A DNA stretch of 52,447 nucleotides from NCBI GenBank assembly GCA_043804035.1, contig JAZDJJ010000144.1:1-52447 (forward strand). The letters are read 5' to 3'. This stretch comes from Bacteroidota bacterium. GTDB lineage: Bacteria > Bacteroidota > Bacteroidia > Palsa-948. Made by a program: the position numbers and the translations under genes. The notes below the pieces were generated by a model that was not told where the DNA came from, ran no database searches, and worked only from the letters and a program-made list of their open reading frames with translations. Position 1 is the stretch's first letter. Every line of letters starts with the position of its first letter. Shown in pieces: positions 2,639 to 45,057 of the stretch.

Positions 2639-3604
2639 TTAATAGCGAATTGTTCCTGATAAGTAATGTTGTATGTAATCAGATATTCCTTCTTCCATAG
2701 AGAAAAAGTTTTTGTCATAACTGATACTCCTGAGTTTTTCCATTTTCGCTTCGGTGAAATACTGGTATTTATTTCTGATGTCAGATGGTGTGTCAATAAA
2801 TTCTATTTGTGGTATTTTCCCGAGAGCAGAAAATACATTCTTTGCAAGATCCGAAAATGTTCTAGATTTCCCTGACCCAAGATTATAGATTCCTGAGTTT
2901 TTACGATGAAGCATGAACCAATGCAAAACTTCCATCACATCTTTCACATAAATAAAATCGCGCAACTGTTCACCATCTTTGTATTTTGGATTGTGTGAAC
3001 GGAATAATTTTACTTTTCCTGTTTCCTGAATTTGATTGAATGAATGAAATACCACCGAAGCCATTCTTCCTTTATGATATTCATTTGGTCCATACACATT
3101 AAAAAATTTAAGTCCTGCCCAGAAGTACGGTTTTCTCTCTTGCTTTAACGCCCATTTGTCAAATTCATTTTTTGATTCTCCATAAAGATTGAGGGGTATT
3201 AATTTTTCTATCACTTCGTGGTTATCTTCATAGCCAAATTCTCCTCCTCCATAAGTGGCAGCCGAAGAAGCATACACTAATGGAAGTCCGTATTCAACAC
3301 ATACATTCCAAACATCTTTAGAAAAGTTAAGATTGAGTTTATTAAAAATATTTTTGTCGGATTCAATAGTATCGGTTCTTGCACCAATGTGAAAAACAAA
3401 TTGCACAAAGCGATGATTTTCTCTAAGCCATTGCGGAAAGATATCGCGGTAAACTTCTTTTGAAAATATCTTACCGAAAAGATTTTTATTTTTCTCTTCT
3501 TTTGAAAAATCATCCACTACAACAATGTCCTTGTATCCTTCCTCGTTAAGTTTTTTTACAAGGCAGGAACCAATAAATCCTGTGGCACCGGTAACTACAA
3601 TCAT
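2639..3604 (-). CDS. hldD: ADP-L-glycero-D-manno-heptose 6-epimerase-like NAD-dependent epimerase
   Basis: 321 aa. N-terminal Rossmann motif VTGATGFIGS. YASSAATYG, FNVYGPNEYHKGRMASVVFH and RDFIYVKDV align with E. coli HldD/RfaD blocks recalled from memory. Confidence 0.8.
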   Translation of the reverse strand: MIVVTGATGFIGSCLVKKLNEEGYKDIVVVDDFSKEEKNKNLFGKIFSKEVYRDIFPQWLRENHRFVQFVFHIGARTDTIESDKNIFNKLNLNFSKDVWNVCVEYGLPLVYASSAATYGGGEFGYEDNHEVIEKLIPLNLYGESKNEFDKWALKQERKPYFWAGLKFFNVYGPNEYHKGRMASVVFHSFNQIQETGKVKLFRSHNPKYKDGEQLRDFIYVKDVMEVLHWFMLHRKNSGIYNLGSGKSRTFSDLAKNVFSALGKIPQIEFIDTPSDIRNKYQYFTEAKMEKLRSISYDKNFFSMEEGISDYIQHYLSGTIRY

Positions 3605-3608
3605 ACTC

Positions 3609-3692
3609 TATGAATTATGAATTACGAATTACGAATTATGAATTATGAATTACGAATTATGAATTATGAATTATGAATTATGAATTACGAAT
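3609..3692. repeat. Perfectly phased tandem array of 12 heptamers TAYGAAT (Y pattern T,T,C,C,T,T,C,T,T,T,T,C)
   Basis: Counted directly in the sequence, 84 bp. It lies between the lipoprotein gene stop (3759) and the hldD-like start codon (3602-3604 on the minus strand), ending 5 nt from that start. Confidence 0.95.
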
Positions 3693-3758
3693 ATAGAAAA
3701 AAATGCACTCTATAATTTGTTAATCAAAAACTATTCTCCTCTATGAATGAACGTGGCT

Positions 3759-4187
3759 TTAATTAAAAATATGCAATACAGTTCCGTCAAAAATAACTTG
3801 GTAGTATTTAAGCGGAATAGTTGCTGGTCCTTGATTTGCAGAACCATCAGTGATAAGAAATTTTGAACCGCAGACAGCATCAGTTGCAATAAGATTTGAT
3901 GCATCAATCGCCACTTGATTTGCATCAGAAGTTTTATAGGTACAATGACGGTCGTAAGCCATAAATTCGGTCTGTGATTTTCTGAACACGATAATTCCTT
4001 TGGACCCACCTGAAATATAAATCCATCCTCCGATAGCGTTCAACTGTAAAAAATCAGGATCAGTGGAATACAAATAAATGTCAACATATACATTGGGTAC
4101 TTCGTCTCTATCTTTCTTGCATCCTATGAAAATAAAAAGGAGCAGCAAAGCCAAAGAAATATTATTATACCGGAAATATCTGTTCAT
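3759..4187 (-). CDS. Small lipoprotein, possibly a degenerate Rieske-fold domain
   Basis: 142 aa. Lipobox LLLFIFIGC. The C-terminal pattern GGSKGIIVFR...AYDRHCTY...AVCGSKFLITDG...GPA resembles Rieske-like domains but lacks the full 2Cys+2His ligand set. Confidence 0.5.
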   Translation of the reverse strand: MNRYFRYNNISLALLLLFIFIGCKKDRDEVPNVYVDIYLYSTDPDFLQLNAIGGWIYISGGSKGIIVFRKSQTEFMAYDRHCTYKTSDANQVAIDASNLIATDAVCGSKFLITDGSANQGPATIPLKYYQVIFDGTVLHIFN

Positions 4188-4196
4188 TTTGGTTTA

Positions 4197-4619
4197 TTAT
4201 TGATCTATTATATCGTTGTAATCAACAGATATATTCATCTTAGAAGTAATAGTTAGTCGAATATTTTTAGCAATAGAAATAGATTTTTCGACTTTCTCAT
4301 TAGATAAATTTATTGTTTCGTTGGGGTATCTTATTTCAACTGCATAACTTTGTAATTCTAATAAATCATCATAATATTTTTGAATTTCAGGATCCTTTGG
4401 AGTTATCAATTCAAGCAAATATATCAAGTCATGATATCTTTTGAATTCTATATCAAGAAAAATCAAATATCCTTTTAAATACTTCTCTACTGCTTGCTGA
4501 CAATGAAATGTTGTCGTATCTAAGTAATCCGGTATATGCAAATGGGTTACCTTAGCCGTTCCCAGGTCATGGTCAGCTTTAATAATCCACTGAATTATTT
4601 CATTATTTTTCTCGTTCAT
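4197..4619 (-). CDS. HEPN domain protein (toxin-like partner of a HEPN/MNT pair)
   Basis: 140 aa. A..DL..A......Y....F.CQQAVEKYLKGYL...HDLIYLLE...EIRYP is the classic HEPN (Pfam PF05168-type) pattern. It overlaps the upstream MNT gene by 17 nt. Confidence 0.8.
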   Translation of the reverse strand: MNEKNNEIIQWIIKADHDLGTAKVTHLHIPDYLDTTTFHCQQAVEKYLKGYLIFLDIEFKRYHDLIYLLELITPKDPEIQKYYDDLLELQSYAVEIRYPNETINLSNEKVEKSISIAKNIRLTITSKMNISVDYNDIIDQ

Positions 4620-4923
4620 ATAGGGTTTTTCCGGTATTTAATACTTCATAAACAAAGCTATATTTGTTCTCTTTTGATTCTTCAATTTCTTTTGGAGTAT
4701 AAACAATTAAATCTATTGGAATCATTGCTCCCCATAATAATTTCCTAACATGGATTGATCGCTGGGGCCTTGAAATATCTGTGTCTTTTATTACAAACAA
4801 ATCAAGATCACTATTTTCATTCGGATTCCCATTTGCATAAGAACCGAATAAAATAATTTTCTCCGGATTGTAGGAGTATACAATCTTATTTACAATCTCC
4901 GATATCTTATCTTGTTTGATCAT
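4603..4923 (-). CDS. Minimal nucleotidyltransferase (MNT) domain protein
   Basis: 106 aa. LFGSYANGNPNENSDLDLFV carries the G-S...D-x-D Pol-beta-type nucleotidyltransferase signature. Confidence 0.8.
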   Translation of the reverse strand: MIKQDKISEIVNKIVYSYNPEKIILFGSYANGNPNENSDLDLFVIKDTDISRPQRSIHVRKLLWGAMIPIDLIVYTPKEIEESKENKYSFVYEVLNTGKTLYEREK

Positions 4924-5150
4924 ACTTTTTTGCTAAAATACTATTTTTTTATTGAATTTATTTATATGCCTGATTTTTTGGCTTGGCGGTAACGTTCCGC
5001 AGGTTTATGGCAATACGGGAATGAATCTCCCCGTAGCAAGCCGAGTAGTATTTTATTGATAAAAACAAACTTATACTTTTTTATTATCATTTTTTTTACA
5101 CTCGGATTACGTTTTGCTAAATCCGAGAGAGCGGGAGTAGTATTTTATTG

Positions 5151-5828
5151 TCAGAACACATACCCAATCTTAAGACTTATTGGAATGTTGTAGGTAAATC
5201 GTCTTCCTTGCTCAATCGTCTCGTATGAATAACCTTTATGCCAAATAGCACCAAGTTTGTCTGATTGGTTTATTCTGCCGTCATGTGTAATGTCCCAACG
5301 CTTAGCACCAATACCTGCGGAAAGATCAATTATTAAATGTATGATTGATATTTGCAAGCCCCATCTAAGATTGAAACTTACGCCAGTTCTATTAACTAAA
5401 ATAGAGTCCAAGTAACTATTTGCATAAGATACTGAGTCACGTAACCAAGTCTGAGAACCAAATCTCTCGATTGTATTGAATGTCGATTTGTCATAGGTCA
5501 AGTCAGAAGCAAAGTACTGTCTAACTATTGAGTTGGCTGTATAAAAATATTTTCCTGCAATCGAAAGTCTGCCACCATGAATGTTTGTGTGTTCATTAAA
5601 ATTCATTTTGAATAAGTCAACGAAGTACATTGCGGAAATTTCGGCAGAAACTTTTTTGGAAAATAATCTTTCATAACTTAATTCAAGTCCATTGTCAAAA
5701 AAATTAACCGTCGCTGAAGGAGAAAACTTAATTTGATTCTTAAAAGTTGCACTACTGTCCTGTCCATCTATGAAATGAACCTGAAAAAATAAAGCAATTA
5801 ATGGTAATATGTAAATTTGTCTTTTCAA
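5151..5828 (-). CDS. Putative outer-membrane beta-barrel protein
   Basis: 225 aa. Signal peptide MKRQIYILPLIALFF, alternating hydrophobic pattern, C-terminal ...LKIGYVF ending in an aromatic residue. Confidence 0.5.
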   Translation of the reverse strand: MKRQIYILPLIALFFQVHFIDGQDSSATFKNQIKFSPSATVNFFDNGLELSYERLFSKKVSAEISAMYFVDLFKMNFNEHTNIHGGRLSIAGKYFYTANSIVRQYFASDLTYDKSTFNTIERFGSQTWLRDSVSYANSYLDSILVNRTGVSFNLRWGLQISIIHLIIDLSAGIGAKRWDITHDGRINQSDKLGAIWHKGYSYETIEQGRRFTYNIPISLKIGYVF

Positions 5829-16775: not shown

Positions 16776-17010
16776 TTACTGTTTAGGTCATTTATTTGGT
16801 TATCTGCCTGTGCCCTGCAGACAGGTGTGAAAATAGAAAATGGTATAGAAAAAAGAAATAAGTAATTAGAAAATAGAAAAATTCAGTTCTTGAAATATCT
16901 GAATAAATGTTTTCTTTCCATTCTCTTTTTTTACATTGCTACTTTCCATACTATTTTCCATTTTCTTCTAACGAATTAAAAAAAATTTATTACCCATCTT
17001 AAATAGTAAC
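16776..17010. repeat. Copy A of a ~230-bp mosaic repeat (inverted partner at 44829-45057)
   Basis: Hand alignment with the reverse complement of 44829-45057. A 52-nt block is identical (16835-16886 = rc 44948-44999) and flanked by similar sequence on both sides. The arms GAAAATAGAAAATGGTATAGAAAA and CTTTCCATACTATTTTCCATTTTC are near reverse complements of each other. Confidence 0.8.
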
Positions 17011-37675: not shown

Positions 37676-38656
37676 ATGAAAAACATTTTAAACATATTAT
37701 TTGAACACAAAACACTTTCTTACGAACAAGCGAAAGAAGTGCTGATAAATATTGCATCTGCGAAATATAATTTTTCGCAAGTAGCAGCATTTATGTCAGT
37801 GTTTTTGATGCGTCCAATTACTGTGGAAGAATTATCTGGTTTTAGAGATGCGATGTTGGATTTGTGTTTAAGAATTGATTTTGATACTAATGAAACCATT
37901 GACATTGTCGGGACAGGCGGTGATAAAAAAAATACTTTTAATATTTCCACGCTCTCTTGTTTTGTTGCAGCAGGAGCAGGAATAAAAATTACTAAGCATG
38001 GCAATTACGGAGTGAGTTCGGTGAGCGGGTCCTCAAATGTTTTAGAGGCAATCGGTTATAAATTCACAAATGACAAAAATATTTTACAGAAGCAATTGGA
38101 TGAAGCAGGATTATGTTTCATGCATGCACCATTGTTTCACCCTGCTATGAAAAATGTTGCACCAATTAGAAAAGAACTTGGCGTACGAACTTTTTTCAAT
38201 ATACTCGGACCAATTGTGAATCCCTGTTTTCCAAAATATCAATTGCTCGGTGTCTACAATTTAGAAATAGCTCGCTTGTACAATTATCTTTTGCAAAATA
38301 CTTTGAATGAATATGTAATTGTTTACTCATTTGATGGATATGATGAAATTTCTCTCACGGGAAATTATAAAATAATTTTAAGAGATAAAGAGCAGATTAT
38401 TGAACCGAAAATAAAACTGAAGCAGAAAGATTTGTTTGGAGGAAAATCAGTAGATGAGTCAGCAAAAATATTTATTAACATTTTGAAAGGCGAAGGAACC
38501 AAAGCGCAAAATGAAGTGGTGATGGCAAATGCAGGAATGGCAATTTATTGTGTGAAGAAAAATTCATTAAATGATTGTATTGCCGAAGCAAGAGAATCTC
38601 TTGAATCAAAAAAAGCATTTACCATTTATAAAAAACTAATTGACTCTAATTTGTAA
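37676..38656 (+). CDS. trpD: Anthranilate phosphoribosyltransferase
   Basis: 326 aa. DIVGTGGDKKNTFNIST, KHGN and FFNILGP. Confidence 0.95.
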   Translation: MKNILNILFEHKTLSYEQAKEVLINIASAKYNFSQVAAFMSVFLMRPITVEELSGFRDAMLDLCLRIDFDTNETIDIVGTGGDKKNTFNISTLSCFVAAGAGIKITKHGNYGVSSVSGSSNVLEAIGYKFTNDKNILQKQLDEAGLCFMHAPLFHPAMKNVAPIRKELGVRTFFNILGPIVNPCFPKYQLLGVYNLEIARLYNYLLQNTLNEYVIVYSFDGYDEISLTGNYKIILRDKEQIIEPKIKLKQKDLFGGKSVDESAKIFINILKGEGTKAQNEVVMANAGMAIYCVKKNSLNDCIAEARESLESKKAFTIYKKLIDSNL

Positions 38657-38667
38657 TTCATAGTACT

Positions 38668-39480
38668 ATGAACATACTTAACAAAATAATCGGGCATAAG
38701 AAAAAGGAAGTTGCTGAGAAAAAATCACTTTACCCAGTAAAACTTTTGGAAAAATCCATTTACTTCAATTCTCCGACTGTGTCGTTGAAGAAATATCTTT
38801 TGCGTAAAGATAAGGTTGGCATCATTGCAGAATTCAAACGCAAATCACCATCAAAAGGAATTATTAATCAATATACACCTATTGATCGTACTTCAATTGG
38901 ATATATGCAGGCAGGAGCAAGTGCGTTATCGGTTTTGACAGATTTTGAATTTTTTGGAGGAAAGAATAATGACTTGATTACGGCACGAAAATTTAATTAC
39001 TGCCCGATTCTCCGAAAGGATTTTATCATTGACGAATATCAAATCATTGAAGCAAAATCAATTGGTGCTGATGCGATTCTTTTATTGGCGAATGTTTTAT
39101 CTGCGAAAGAAATAAAAATATTTACGAAAATTGCAAAGTCGTTTGGAATGGATGTCTTGCTTGAAATCAAAGACAAACAGGAATTAAAATCCATAAATGA
39201 TAATGTTGATGCTATCGGTGTTAACAATCGTAATCTAAAAGATTTTTCTCTGAATGTGAAGCAATCATTTGATTTGGTGGATTTAATTCCAAATGATTTT
39301 GTAAAAATTTCTGAAAGCGGAATAGATTCAGTAAAAATAATTAATGAGTTGAAAGATGCTGGATTCAATGGATTTCTCATAGGAGAAACGTTTATGAAAC
39401 ACAGTCGTCCAGAAATTGCTTGTGCAAATTTTATTCGTTCATTACTAATAACGAATGAGCGAATTACGAATAAATCATAA
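38668..39480 (+). CDS. trpC: Indole-3-glycerol phosphate synthase
   Basis: 270 aa. IIAEFKRKSPSKG, LRKDFIID and GVNNRNL. The last ~12 codons (…LLITNERITNKS) run into heptamer-repeat-like DNA. Confidence 0.9.
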   Translation: MNILNKIIGHKKKEVAEKKSLYPVKLLEKSIYFNSPTVSLKKYLLRKDKVGIIAEFKRKSPSKGIINQYTPIDRTSIGYMQAGASALSVLTDFEFFGGKNNDLITARKFNYCPILRKDFIIDEYQIIEAKSIGADAILLLANVLSAKEIKIFTKIAKSFGMDVLLEIKDKQELKSINDNVDAIGVNNRNLKDFSLNVKQSFDLVDLIPNDFVKISESGIDSVKIINELKDAGFNGFLIGETFMKHSRPEIACANFIRSLLITNERITNKS

Positions 39481-39547
39481 CCATATCGTTCATAATAAAT
39501 TAATTCGTTCCACCAAATCGGGATTAGAAATAATAATTCATAGGATT

Positions 39548-40180
39548 ATGAAACTGAAAATTTGCGGAATGAAATATGCCGATAACATCAGAGAGGTTGC
39601 AAAACTTTCTCCCGATTTTATGGGTTTTATTTTTTATCCTTACTCAAAAAGATTTGTCGGATATAATTTTGTGATGCCTGAAATTACTTTTTCAATTAAA
39701 AAAGTCGGAGTGTTTGTAAATGATTCAATAGAAAACATTCTCAATAAAGTAAAAAAATACAAACTTGATTTTGTACAACTGCATGGAAATGAATCAGTTG
39801 AATTTTGTAAAAGAACAGGAGAGAAAGTAAAAATTATAAAAGCATTTGGTATTGATGAACAATTTAATTTTTCTGCTTTGAATGAATACGAAAACTGTTG
39901 TGAATATTTTTTGTTAGATACGAAAACAAAAGAGTATGGAGGAAGTGGAAAAAGTTTTGACAAAAATTTCTTGAAACATTATAAGTCACAAAAACCATTT
40001 TTTCTCAGCGGGGGAATTGATTTAGAAGAAGTATCAATACTCAATACTTCAAATCTGTTTGCAATTGATGTAAACAGCAAATTTGAAATCAGTCCGGGAG
40101 TGAAAGATATTAATAAATTATCTCTGCTAATTATGAATATGCAAATTACGAATAAGGATAGAACAATTCGTAATTCGTAA
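39548..40180 (+). CDS. trpF: Phosphoribosylanthranilate isomerase
   Basis: I prefer the start [10 protein letters not shown] at 39548, since the tracked 39455 start adds 31 aa read from repeat-like DNA. QLHG and FLSGGI are present. The C-terminal ~15 codons (…[16 protein letters not shown]) run through a repeat hairpin. Confidence 0.85.
40144..40175. repeat. Perfect 10-bp hairpin built from opposed heptamer-family units (AATTACGAAT / ATTCGTAATT)
   Basis: Arms at 40144-40153 and 40166-40175 with a 12-nt loop. It lies at the extreme 3' end of trpF, 23 nt before the trpB start. Confidence 0.8.
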
Positions 40181-40197
40181 AAACAAAACAATTAGAA

Positions 40198-41382
40198 ATG
40201 AAATATCAAATTGACAAAAAAGGATATTATGGCAATTTCGGTGGAGCATACATTCCTGAGATGCTCGTGCCGAATGTGGAAGAACTCAAAGAGAATTATT
40301 TGAAAATTATTTCTTCGGAAAAATTTCAGAATGAGTTTCGGGATTTGCTTCGCAATTATGCGGGCAGACCCACACCTTTATATTTCGCAAAACGATTATC
40401 TGAAAAATACAAGACAAATATTTTTCTCAAACGTGAGGACTTACTTCACACAGGCGCTCATAAAATTAACAATACGCTCGGGCAAATTCTTCTTGCAAAA
40501 AAATTAAACAAAACCAGAATTATTGCTGAAACAGGAGCAGGTCAGCACGGAGTGGCAACTGCTACGGTTTGCGCGTTGATGGGATTGGAATGCATAGTAT
40601 ATATGGGTGATGTGGATATTGAACGTCAATCTCCTAATGTATCGCGTATGAAATTACTCGGAGCAAAAGTTGTTTCTGTAAAATCAGGAAGCCAAACATT
40701 AAAAGATGCTACCAATGAAGCAATTCGCGATTGGATAAATAATCCTGTGAATACACATTATATTATCGGTTCAGTGGTTGGTCCGCATCCGTATCCCGAT
40801 ATGGTGGCGAAGTTTCAAAGTATAATTAGTGAAGAAATAAAAAAACAGTTGAGAGAAAAACTCAGAAAAGAAAATCCTGATTATATTGTTGCATGTGTGG
40901 GAGGTGGAAGTAATGCTATCGGTGCGTTCTATCATTTTTTAGATAATGAACGAGTGAAATTGATTGCAGTGGAAGCCGCAGGAAAAGGAGTAGAATCGGG
41001 GTACACTGCTGCTACGATGGTGAAAGGAAAGCCAGGAATTATTCACGGAAGCAAAACAATGTTGATGCAGAACGATGATGGACAAATTATTGAGCCATAT
41101 AGCATTTCGGCAGGATTAGATTATCCGGGAGTTGGACCTGTTCATTCGCATTTGTTTGAAACGAAACGAGTGAAGTATGTGAATGCAACTGATGATGAAG
41201 CGTTGCGGGCAGGATTTCTTCTTGCGAAATTAGAAGGAATAATTCCTGCCCTTGAAAGTGCGCACGCTTTGGCATATCTGGAAAAACTACAAGTAAAAAA
41301 AAATGATATTGTGATAGTAAATTTGTCGGGAAGAGGAGATAAAGATTTGGCAACTTATATAAAAAAATATGAGCAAAAATAA
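40198..41382 (+). CDS. trpB: Tryptophan synthase beta chain
   Basis: 394 aa. HTGAHKINN (PLP lysine) and GGGSNAIG. Confidence 0.97.
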
Positions 41383-42172
41383 AATTGATACTCTATTTAA
41401 CAAACCGCTTTCCACTTTCCGGAGAAAAGGAAATGAGATGAAGAAAAATATTTTTTCTATTTATTTTACTGCAGGTTTTCCGAATTTAAAAGACACAAAT
41501 TTGATTTTGAATGAACTGGAAAAAACCGGAGCAGATATGATTGAAATCGGAATGCCATTCTCCGACCCATTAGCAGACGGACCAATTATTCAGCACTCAA
41601 ACAAAGTTGCTCTTAAGAACGGAATGAATCTTAAACTACTTTTTAAACAACTGTCAACTGCCAACTGCCAACTACCAATTCTTTTAATGGGTTACTTAAA
41701 TCCTGTTCTGCAATTTGGTGTGAAGAGTTTTTGCAAATGCGCAAGTGAAGTGGGAGTCAGCGGAGTAATCATTCCCGATTTACCGATGGAGGAATATCTT
41801 AATGATTACAAATTTATTTTTAATAAATATGATATAAAAAATATTTTTTTGATAACTCCACAAACATCCGAAGCAAGAATAAAAATGATTGACGATAATA
41901 CCGATGGATTTATTTATTTGGTTTCTTCTGCCAGCACTACCGGCACGAATACTGAAATGAATGACGAAAAAGAAAAATATTTTTCTCGGATAAAAAAAAT
42001 GAATCTTAAAAATCCTTTGATGATTGGGTTTGGGATTTCTAATAAAAAAAGTTTTGCGAAAGCATGTGAGTATGCAAACGGAGCGATTATCGGGAGTGCG
42101 TTTATCAGAGCAATTGAAAATAATAACAACTTAAATAAAAGCATCAATCATTTTATAAAAACAATACGATGA
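41369..42172 (+). CDS. trpA: Tryptophan synthase alpha chain
   Basis: 267 aa. KIDTLF…[26 protein letters not shown] and [10 protein letters not shown]. Overlaps trpB by 14 nt. Confidence 0.9.
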
Positions 42173-44828: not shown

Positions 44829-45057
44829 GGTTACTATTTAGAATGGTTAACAAAAAAAATTTAATTCGTCAGGAGAAAATGGAAAATAGTATGGAAGCAA
44901 TGTGAAAAAAGAAAATAAAAAAAACCACTATCCGGACATTTCAATATCTGAATTTTTCTATTTTCTAATTACTTATTTCTTTTTTCTATACCATTTTCTG
45001 TTTTCACATAACCAAATACTTGTATTGAGCTTGCCGAAATAAATGACCTAACAGTAA
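44829..45057. repeat. Copy B (inverted) of the ~230-bp mosaic repeat
   Basis: Its reverse complement aligns with 16776-17010, including the 52-nt identical core at 44948-44999. Its last ~10 nt overlap the stop and final codons of the bioF-like gene. Confidence 0.8.

What the first reader, a model, noticed from the sequence alone, without database searches (positions are those of the whole stretch)
3609..3692. Twelve phased TAYGAAT heptamers abutting the start codon of the heptose epimerase gene
An 84-bp head-to-tail array of a 7-nt unit ends 5 nt from the hldD-like ATG. It therefore fills the region where the 5' UTR and core promoter of an LPS-core gene should be. The only variation is C/T at unit position 3. 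Short tandem repeats upstream of surface-structure genes are classic slipped-strand contingency loci, and copy-number change would alter promoter or UTR spacing in 7-nt steps. In one frame the array reads I(T/M)NYELR, which is why such arrays are sometimes called as phantom ORFs.
Basis: partly seen in the sequence, partly recalled or inferred. Interest (0 to 1): 0.6.

Follow-up and report, generated by a model that had tools for sequence, protein, structure and literature searches.

The report
Heptamer microsatellite before hldD start
A real run of twelve 7-base repeats sits just in front of a cell-envelope sugar gene in an uncultured Bacteroidota bacterium, but it is an ordinary member of a known class of bacterial 7-base repeats, and nothing shows that it is a dedicated on/off switch.

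Summary
Twelve gap-free TAYGAAT units lie at 3609-3692. They end 4 nt (not 5) from the ATG of a bona fide hldD gene on the minus strand, where the array reads (ATTCRTA)12-GAGT-ATG.

The unit itself is not special. A scrambled control heptamer forms arrays in as many genomes of the same phyla. What stands out is the period of 7, which is already known (Mrazek 2007; Rehm 2015; MacGregor 2015).

In the two nearest relatives (hldD 80-81% identical), the upstream 142-aa lipoprotein gene and hldD are only 3 nt apart. The array, with 66 nt of unique DNA, is therefore a lineage-specific insertion or expansion in a once-tight operon junction. It is not a conserved promoter.

Two other relatives carry a hairpin cassette built from related TACGAA words at this same junction. 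In the window, single ATTCRTA units precede four trp gene starts.

All six frames of the array are closed, and the leader RNA is unstructured.

Copy-number variation could not be tested.

Best reading: a slippage-made AU-rich intercistronic leader that may drift in 7-nt steps. A contingency switch remains possible but has no support.

The parts
3609..3692 (-). Heptanucleotide array. It is 12 x TAYGAAT on the + strand and (ATTCRTA)12 in the sense of hldD. There are 4 C/G-type and 8 T/A-type units, and the longest pure run is 4 units.
   Evidence: All six frames are closed.
3605..3608 (-). A 4-nt gap (GAGT in gene sense) between the last unit and the hldD ATG. There is no Shine-Dalgarno sequence.
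2639..3604 (-). hldD, ADP-L-glycero-D-manno-heptose 6-epimerase, 321 aa. The start is fixed by homology (MIVVTGA..).
   Evidence: TIGR02197 at 372.8 bits against a cut-off of 274.6; Pfam Epimerase; orthologue starts.
3693..3758 (-). The 66-nt non-repeat part of the spacer. It holds one solitary ATTCATAGAG copy (3748-3739) just after the upstream stop and a weak hairpin. It has no other copy in the window.
   Evidence: Only a sub-threshold Rfam hit.
3759..4187 (-). A 142-aa predicted lipoprotein gene (signal peptide plus Cys), the conserved upstream partner of hldD. In relatives its stop lies 3 nt from the hldD ATG.
38649..38670 (+). Short relic of the same word: ATTTGTA ATTCATA G TACT ATG. It supplies the trpD stop (TAA) and precedes the trpC start.
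39430..39550 (+). The trpC/trpF junction, made of degenerate units in both orientations. It ends ATTCATAGGATT ATG at the trpF start.
40132..40200 (+). The trpF/trpB junction. AATTACGAAT and ATTCGTAATT form a 10-bp inverted pair. ATTCGTA x2 supplies the trpF stop and lies 17 nt before the trpB ATG.

Best explanation
The array is a lineage-specific heptanucleotide long simple-sequence repeat.

**Origin (inferred).** An ATTCGTA/ATTCATA seed belongs to the TACGAA-word spacer vocabulary of this group of uncultured Bacteroidota. Replication slippage expanded it to 12 units inside a junction that was once only 3 nt long, between a lipoprotein gene and hldD.

**Current role (inferred).** It is most likely transcribed with the upstream gene as an intercistronic leader. 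As RNA it is AU-rich and unstructured, with TAA stops in every frame. It therefore ends any read-through translation and leaves an open landing site for Shine-Dalgarno-independent initiation at the ATG 4 nt downstream.

**Dynamics (inferred).** Unit number probably drifts in 7-nt steps. Any effect on hldD output would be graded at most. It is not a dedicated phase-variation switch.

**Shown here:** the anatomy, the insertion relative to sister genomes, the lack of RNA structure, and the fact that the unit is not special.

**Not shown:** slippage as the origin, co-transcription, and any effect on translation.
For: - **Anatomy:**
- **Insertion into a tight junction.** The nearest relatives L426 (hldD 81% identical) and L428 (80%) have TAAattATG and TGAattATG at the orthologous junction. 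L014 has an overlap of 1 nt. The window has 154 nt.
- **Lineage-specific.** None of the 80 hldD loci from species genomes carries the repeat.
- **The unit is not special.**
  - Five or more units occur in at least 120 contigs, about 49 from Bacteroidota, 41 from cyanobacteria and 30 from 10 or more other groups.
  - In viral contigs the target has 26 hits, the controls 11, 10 and 33, and TAAYTGA 26.
- **The period is special.**
  - In the fetched loci, arrays of 3 or more exact copies number 240 for period 7, of which 97 are other units. Periods 5, 6, 8 and 9 have 1, 6, 7 and 1.
  - In the unbiased hldD loci the counts are 5 against 0-1.
  - This matches Mrazek 2007, as summarised in PMC4679880 and PMC4692102.
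- **Placement.**
  - Arrays are almost always intergenic (8 of 138 lie inside ORFs).
  - They show no orientation bias across phyla (27 vs 23 in co-directional gene pairs).
  - They have no recurrent neighbouring gene family.
- **RNA structure.** The leader folds no better than shuffles (z = +0.96; 172 of 200 shuffles fold at least as well).
- **Leader-like use in this genome.**
  - ATTCRTA in sense lies within 40 nt upstream of 5 of 44 starts (hldD, trpG, trpC, trpF, trpB) and never in antisense.
  - 3 of the 5 ATTCATAG 8-mers in the window sit 3-5 nt before an ATG.
Against: - No transcript data exist, so co-transcription and the transcription start are inferred.
- A promoter in the 66-nt unique part cannot be excluded. 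A near-consensus Bacteroidota -7 box, TAGTTTTTG, lies at 3733-3725. The MNT-HEPN insertion upstream may have displaced the ancestral operon promoter.
- Four of the five leader cases lie in one operon, so the enrichment rests on few independent events.
- Slippage was not observed directly.
- The mixed C/T pattern means the array is neither young nor maximally unstable.
- The counts from public collections are capped at 120 rows, so they show that the target is no commoner than a control. They are not exact frequencies.
Confidence: 0.6

Rival explanations
1. Contingency locus. Slipped-strand changes in unit number switch or tune hldD expression and so vary the LPS core. The model is the (ATCTTTC)n repeat in the 5' UTR of H. 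influenzae hmw1A.
For: - The array is a 12-unit heptamer repeat directly upstream of an envelope-sugar gene.
- In hmw1A, a transcribed heptamer repeat lowers expression as it lengthens (PMC8262952, PMC12721329).
- Heptamer arrays differ by 7-nt indels between close strains elsewhere (PMC4679880, Cyanothece 8801 vs 8802).
Against: - At 84 bp the array is too long to be a promoter spacer.
- It has no complementary arm or stable hairpin, which the hmw mechanism requires.
- Its units are interrupted, with a longest pure run of 4.
- The same word precedes housekeeping trp genes.
- Arrays of this and of a scrambled unit lie next to unrelated genes in many phyla.
- The array is absent from all relatives' hldD loci.
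- No variation data exist.
Confidence: 0.12
2. Expanded remnant of one arm of a junction-seeking palindromic cassette. A small non-coding hairpin element with arms made of TACGAA/TTCGTA words inserted between the stop and the start. The start-proximal arm later grew by slippage, and the rest decayed.
For: - At exactly this junction, L427 has 40-nt inverted arms that are 83% complementary, and L001 has an inverted pair 366 nt apart.
- The left arms of L427 and L001 are homologous.
- The hldD-proximal arm of L001 reads AATTCGTAATTTCGTA, in the same orientation as the window's array.
- The arm 21-mer is dispersed: 9 stretches in 6 MAGs, single or in inverted pairs, at gene ends.
- The window has a matching 10-bp hairpin at the trpF/trpB junction.
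Against: - The window's spacer does not align with the cassette beyond the short word.
- The 21-mer arm is absent from the window even with 3 mismatches allowed.
- No inverted partner of the array exists in the spacer.
- L426 and L428 have clean 3-nt junctions, so either insertions were independent or excision was precise.
- No mobilising gene is linked. A four-helix-bundle gene lies next to only 2 of 120 arrays.
Confidence: 0.18
3. Dedicated translation leader. (AUUCRUA)n is the binding array for a trans-acting RNA-binding protein (S1- or cold-shock-like, one protein per heptamer) or a small RNA that sets hldD translation, as proposed for TAACTGA repeats.
For: - The array is in sense orientation 4 nt from the ATG and has no Shine-Dalgarno sequence.
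- ATTCATAG plus 3-5 nt plus ATG recurs at three starts.
- ATTCRTA precedes five starts in sense and none in antisense.
- The RNA is unstructured.
- PMC4679880 proposes this role for TAACTGA.
Against: - Across phyla the same unit has no orientation preference and is as common behind stop codons and between convergent genes.
- In L433 the related module lies upstream of starts in the opposite orientation.
- No candidate binding factor has been identified.
- Twelve units are far more than a ribosome site needs.
Confidence: 0.08
4. Assembly artefact. The copy number, or the array itself, was produced by mis-assembly of short reads in a metagenome bin.
For: - The window is a whole 52,447-bp MAG contig.
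- Many other organisms in metagenomes carry the same repeat words, which could confuse an assembler.
Against: - The array is interior to the contig, 3.6 kb from its end, and is flanked by unique sequence on both sides.
- At 84 bp it can be spanned by single 150-nt reads.
- The irregular C/T pattern gives it internal anchors.
Confidence: 0.02

Closest known systems
Heptanucleotide long simple-sequence repeats (LSSRs) of prokaryotes (Mrazek, Guo & Shah 2007), including the cyanobacterial STRR heptamers and the Xanthomonas GGGAATC / Nostoc GGGGAYT repeats (Rehm et al. 2015, PMC4692102)
   Same: - Period 7.
- Intergenic placement.
- Close to a gene end.
- Found on either strand.
- Differs between related genomes.
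- Function unknown.
- The excess of period 7 over periods 5, 6, 8 and 9 was reproduced here.
   Different: - The unit is AT-rich (ATTCRTA), so it has no G-quadruplex potential.
- The host is an uncultured Bacteroidota bacterium.
- The array sits inside a former 3-nt operon junction.
TAACTGA intergenic direct repeats of marine Beggiatoaceae, some cyanobacteria and five Bacteroidetes (MacGregor 2015, PMC4679880)
   Same: - The unit has the same base composition (A3 T2 C1 G1) and contains a stop codon.
- Arrays lie a few nt upstream of start codons in 'forward' orientation, without a Shine-Dalgarno sequence.
- They occur next to genes of unrelated function, including housekeeping operons.
- The phyletic pattern is patchy, spanning cyanobacteria and Bacteroidetes.
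- TAAYTGA and TAYGAAT arrays are equally frequent in viral contigs, at 26 each.
   Different: - The unit sequence is different.
- Only one long array and four short relics were seen in 52 kb. The genome-wide count is unknown.
- Horizontal spread, as argued for TAACTGA, is not needed here, because a scrambled control unit has the same distribution.
(ATCTTTC)n phase-variable repeat in the 5' UTR of Haemophilus influenzae hmw1A/hmw2A (PMC8262952, PMC12721329)
   Same: - A heptamer array of more than 10 units lies upstream of a surface-structure gene.
- It is probably transcribed as part of the leader.
   Different: - hmw needs a long hairpin between ten repeats and a G-rich arm, plus RNase III. 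This leader has no complementary arm.
- hmw arrays are pure and vary between isolates. This one is interrupted, and no variation data exist.
- hmw lies between two mapped promoters. This array lies in a former operon junction.

Membership tests
Heptanucleotide long SSR (LSSR / STRR-like) | Head-to-tail copies of a 7-nt unit, without indels, far beyond chance | tested here: met
   There are 12.0 copies with 0% indels and a score of 140. None of 100 shuffles reached the observed count.
Heptanucleotide long SSR (LSSR / STRR-like) | Intergenic location near a gene end, with the same kind of array at many unrelated loci and in many genomes | tested here: met
   The array is intergenic, 4 nt from the hldD start. 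In other genomes 130 of 138 arrays are intergenic, and there is no recurrent neighbouring gene family.
Heptanucleotide long SSR (LSSR / STRR-like) | Copy number differs between close strains (slippage) | not testable with these tools
   There is no relative above 81% identity. The exact proteins are not on record. No sequencing run holds the locus.
TAACTGA-type start-proximal heptamer repeats (MacGregor 2015) | Repeats in forward orientation within a few nt of start codons, at many genes of one genome | tested here: inconclusive
   Five of 44 starts in the window have ATTCRTA in sense and none in antisense, but four of the five lie in the trp operon. The rest of the genome could not be searched.
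TAACTGA-type start-proximal heptamer repeats (MacGregor 2015) | Related or scrambled heptamers are rarely found as repeats (unit specificity) | tested here: not met
   Across public genomes the scrambled unit TAGYAAT is as widespread as the target. In viral contigs the controls gave 10-33 hits against 26 for the target. Within-genome specificity could not be tested.
Phase-variable contingency locus (promoter or UTR SSR) | Reversible changes in repeat number within populations or between strains | not testable with these tools
   
Phase-variable contingency locus (promoter or UTR SSR) | The repeat lies where length changes expression: between promoter elements, or within a structured 5' UTR element | tested here: not met
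   At 84 bp the array exceeds any -33/-7 or -35/-10 spacer. There is no stable hairpin (z = +0.96). The ancestral junction is 3 nt long and has no promoter.
Phase-variable contingency locus (promoter or UTR SSR) | Uninterrupted (pure) repeat tract | tested here: not met
   The units read T T C C T T C T T T T C, and the longest pure run is 4 units.
Palindromic hairpin cassette / MITE-like junction element | Two inverted arms bounding the element | tested here: not met
   This is met in the relatives L427 and L001. In the window's spacer there is no inverted partner, and the arm 21-mer is absent.

The most novel reading that the evidence does not exclude
The 7-nt arrays and the word-built hairpin cassettes that occupy stop/start junctions would be products of one undescribed process. 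That process would be period-specific and would not depend on the unit sequence. It would write or mobilise 7-nt arrays into intercistronic junctions of Bacteroidota, cyanobacteria and other phyla. The arrays would then be kept because they serve as Shine-Dalgarno-free ribosome landing pads. On this reading the hldD array would be a recent, still expanding product of that process at a junction that was hit independently in three sister lineages.
Probability: 0.07. Interest if true: 0.8.

Novelty: new member of a known kind. Interest (0 to 1): 0.27.

Why it matters
As it stands this is a clean, well-anchored example of the unexplained heptamer repeats of bacteria. Sister genomes give the empty site: a 3-nt stop/start junction. 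The locus therefore shows that such arrays can be inserted into a tight operon junction without destroying either gene. It also gives a simple test bed for asking whether an AU-rich heptamer array helps, hinders or is neutral for translation in bacteria that lack Shine-Dalgarno pairing. If unit number did tune hldD, it would be the first heptamer-based envelope switch outside Haemophilus, but nothing here points that way. The negative control result also matters for the scan: finding the same heptamer in many phyla is not evidence of a shared element.

Tried and rejected
2. **Copy-number heterogeneity.**
   - No sequencing run holds the locus. The best share of sampled words was 0.08-0.09, and laying the contigs showed only other organisms' repeat words plus one identical 192-nt contig inside hldD.
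   - The exact hldD and lipoprotein proteins are not on record.
   - A junction 28-mer gave 0 hits in metagenome contigs.
   - The nearest hldD among 5.8 billion protein clusters is 81% identical.
3. **Conserved cross-phylum element.** Rejected. The scrambled control TAGYAAT x5 saturates the same scan in the same phyla, and the viral-contig counts are comparable.
4. **Arrays mark a particular neighbouring gene.** Rejected. An all-against-all comparison of 353 flanking ORFs gave no cluster larger than 6, and those clusters were common families (response regulators, ABC ATPases). Four-helix-bundle '23S IVS' proteins lie next to 2 target arrays and 1 control array.
5. **Universal orientation rule.** Rejected. 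Counts were 27 vs 23 in co-directional pairs, with 17 convergent and 5 divergent contexts. The first distance statistics are biased, because the array supplies stop codons that set ORF limits.
6. **Sigma-70-like promoters created by the repeat.** TTCATA-N17-CATAAT occurs four times in phase. I set this aside because the primary sigma factor of Bacteroidota recognises TTTG / TAnnTTTG (my own knowledge), and the scan's total of 7 sites is close to the shuffle mean of 4.4.
7. **Bacteroidota-type promoter in the spacer.** Only a one-base-off -7 box at 3733-3725 was found, with no -33 TTTG. Inconclusive.
8. **Known RNA family.** Only a sub-threshold hit was found (S4-Flavobacteria leader, 19.8 bits against a gathering score of 35.2, E = 0.58).
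9. **The 66-nt unique part as a dispersed repeat.** No other copy exists in the window.
10. **Single units enriched in the window.** They are not (TACGAAT 11 and TATGAAT 17, close to the permutation means). Hexamer words are not enriched in spacers beyond the AT bias.
11. **Literature search for the repeat sequence itself.** It gave 0 papers.

Full report
**1. The observation**

- Reading the window at 3300-4000 and running Tandem Repeats Finder confirm an 84-bp array at 3609-3692. It has period 7, 12.0 copies, no indels and 93% matches.
- The units are TAYGAAT, and position 3 reads T T C C T T C T T T T C.
- A two-unit pattern has 13 matches in the window. 100 dinucleotide-preserving shuffles gave a mean of 0.37, and none reached 13.
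- The neighbouring ORF, 2639..3604 on the minus strand, is a true ADP-glycero-manno-heptose 6-epimerase. It scores 372.8 bits on TIGR02197, against a cut-off of 274.6 (Pfam).
- In gene sense the locus reads (ATTCRTA)12-GAGT-ATG. The gap is therefore 4 nt, not 5, and there is no Shine-Dalgarno sequence.
- All six reading frames through the array are closed. T units give TGA on one strand, and every unit gives TAA on the other. The 'phantom ORF' remark does not apply here, and no ORF of 40 aa or more crosses the array.

**2. Is this heptamer special?**

By record title, about 49 are Bacteroidota, 41 cyanobacteria and 30 come from ten or more other groups. These include Lentisphaerae, Chloroflexi, Treponema, Ignavibacteria, Vibrio and Planctomycetes.
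- On its own this looks like a conserved cross-phylum element, so I ran controls with permuted units of the same composition.
  - In viral contigs, where no scan saturates, the target has 26 hits. The permuted units have 11, 10 and 33, and the published TAACTGA-type unit has 26.
  - The sequence of the unit is therefore not special.
- The period is special. In the fetched loci, arrays of three or more exact copies number 240 for period 7, of which 97 are units other than the target. Periods 5, 6, 8 and 9 have 1, 6, 7 and 1. In the 0.52 Mb of hldD loci, which were not chosen for repeats, the counts are 5 against 0-1.
- This reproduces what Mrazek and colleagues reported in 2007, as summarised in PMC4679880 and PMC4692102. 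Heptanucleotide repeats are the most abundant long SSR class in many bacteria, possibly because of the footprint of the replicative polymerase.

**3. Where such arrays sit in other genomes**

- Of 138 arrays of four or more units, 130 are intergenic.
- Between co-directional genes the two orientations are equally common (27 vs 23). Seventeen arrays lie between convergent genes and only five between divergent genes.
- An all-against-all comparison of 353 flanking ORFs, from both target and control loci, found no recurrent neighbouring family. The largest clusters have six members and are response regulators and ABC ATPases. Small four-helix-bundle proteins lie next to two target arrays and one control array.
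- These properties match the Xanthomonas and Nostoc heptamers described by Rehm et al..

**4. What happened at this locus**

- The window's hldD is a singleton among 5.8 billion protein clusters, and the nearest relative is 81% identical.
- Three of the closest contigs keep the gene order: thioredoxin-like gene, 112-aa gene, 142-aa lipoprotein gene, hldD. The lipoprotein genes are orthologous, at 59-63% identity with the same C-terminus.
- In L426 and L428 the lipoprotein stop and the hldD ATG are 3 nt apart, reading TAAattATG and TGAattATG. In L014 the two genes overlap by one base.
- The window has 154 nt at this junction: 66 nt of unique sequence, the 84-nt array and GAGT. The array is therefore a lineage-specific insertion or expansion in a formerly tight, presumably translationally coupled, operon junction. 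It is not a conserved promoter or regulatory region.
- None of the 80 closest hldD loci from species genomes has the repeat.

**5. A related occupant of the same junction**

- In L427 (179-nt spacer) and L001 (415-nt spacer), the junction holds a hairpin cassette.
  - Its arms are strings of CGAA-anchored words of 7-10 nt.
  - In L427 the arms are 40 nt long and 83% complementary. In L001 an inverted pair lies 366 nt apart.
  - The left arms of the two cassettes are homologous.
  - In L001 the hldD-proximal arm reads AATTCGTAATTTCGTA, in the same orientation as the window's array.
- The arm 21-mer is dispersed. It occurs in nine stretches in six uncultured Bacteroidetes MAGs and in up to three contigs per MAG. 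It is single or in inverted pairs and lies at stop or start codons.
- The window lacks that 21-mer, and its spacer does not align with the cassette. Common descent is therefore possible but not shown.
- Within the window the same word family appears at four consecutive trp junctions. At trpF/trpB it forms a 10-bp hairpin.
- ATTCRTA lies in sense within 40 nt upstream of 5 of 44 starts and never in antisense. Three of the five ATTCATAG 8-mers in the window sit 3-5 nt before an ATG.
- Single units are not otherwise enriched.

**6. Mechanism**

- The leader RNA (3760-3575, minus strand) folds no better than shuffles (z = +0.96). No Rfam family reaches threshold.
- The array cannot be a promoter spacer at 84 bp. 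The spacer has only a one-base-off Bacteroidota -7 box and no -33 element.
- The in-phase sigma-70-like hexamers created by the repeat do not match the promoter type of this phylum. This last point rests on my own knowledge.
- The most economical reading is an AU-rich, unstructured intercistronic leader. It stops read-through in all frames and leaves the start codon accessible for Shine-Dalgarno-independent initiation. Unit number would drift by slippage.
- The one heptamer repeat with a worked-out switching mechanism is (ATCTTTC)n of H. influenzae hmw1A. It needs a long hairpin with a complementary G-rich arm and RNase III. That arm is absent here.
- The array is also interrupted, with a longest pure run of four units, which lowers slippage rates.

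**7. What could not be done**

  - No sequencing run holds the locus. Runs share only the repeat words of other organisms, plus one identical 192-nt contig inside hldD.
  - The exact proteins are not on record.
  - A junction-spanning pattern gave no match in metagenome contigs.

**8. Verdict**

The array is a slippage-prone repeat in the hldD leader, but nothing indicates a dedicated contingency switch, and several features argue against one.
- It is a new member of a known kind (heptanucleotide LSSRs, closest to the TAACTGA-type start-proximal repeats).
- Its one useful feature is that sister genomes preserve the empty 3-nt site.
- Earlier notes of this scan on other genomes describe the same class. 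I used them as leads only and tested two of their claims here. Linkage to a cassette is weak for this unit. The pushing apart of a tight junction is seen here too.

Noticed in passing
L427:3817-4000; L001:2590-2995; L429-L437: A dispersed hairpin cassette has arms made of CGAA-anchored words (CGAAAAACGAATTTGTACGAAnnTACGAA). It sits exactly between the lipoprotein stop and the hldD ATG in two sister MAGs. It recurs, single or in inverted pairs, at gene ends in six uncultured Bacteroidetes MAGs.
   Followed up: partly
window 4197-5828: Relative to L426 and L428, a 225-aa ORF plus an MNT (4603-4923) / HEPN (4197-4619) toxin-antitoxin-like pair is inserted. It lies between the 112/115-aa gene and the lipoprotein gene, which removes the ancestral 55-nt divergent promoter region of the lipoprotein-hldD pair.
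   Followed up: partly
window 38656-38670, 39536-39550, 3602-3616: The word ATTCATAG followed by 3-5 nt and ATG recurs at the trpC, trpF and hldD starts. These are 3 of the 5 copies of that 8-mer in the window.
   Followed up: partly
window 40144-40175: AATTACGAAT and ATTCGTAATT form a perfect 10-bp inverted repeat, 12 nt apart, at the trpF/trpB junction. The second arm supplies the trpF stop codon.
   Followed up: partly
window 16829-16880 and 44954-44989; 41648-41678: There are other period-7 arrays in the window. GAAAATA x7.7 and its inverse TTTTCTA x5.1 lie 28 kb apart. CAACTGC x4.4 lies inside the trpA reading frame.
   Followed up: no
L123:417-7842: A Dolichospermum contig has nine TACGAAT arrays in 8 kb. 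Five of them lie inside one 1335-codon open frame, where they would read YELRITN. This is either a phantom ORF or a repeat protein.
   Followed up: no
window 3759-4187: The conserved 142-aa partner of hldD is a predicted lipoprotein with invariant Cys and His residues (DRHC, and C106). It has a faint Rieske-like match (NCBIfam E = 0.0028). Its function is unknown, and it is linked to hldD only in this lineage.
   Followed up: no
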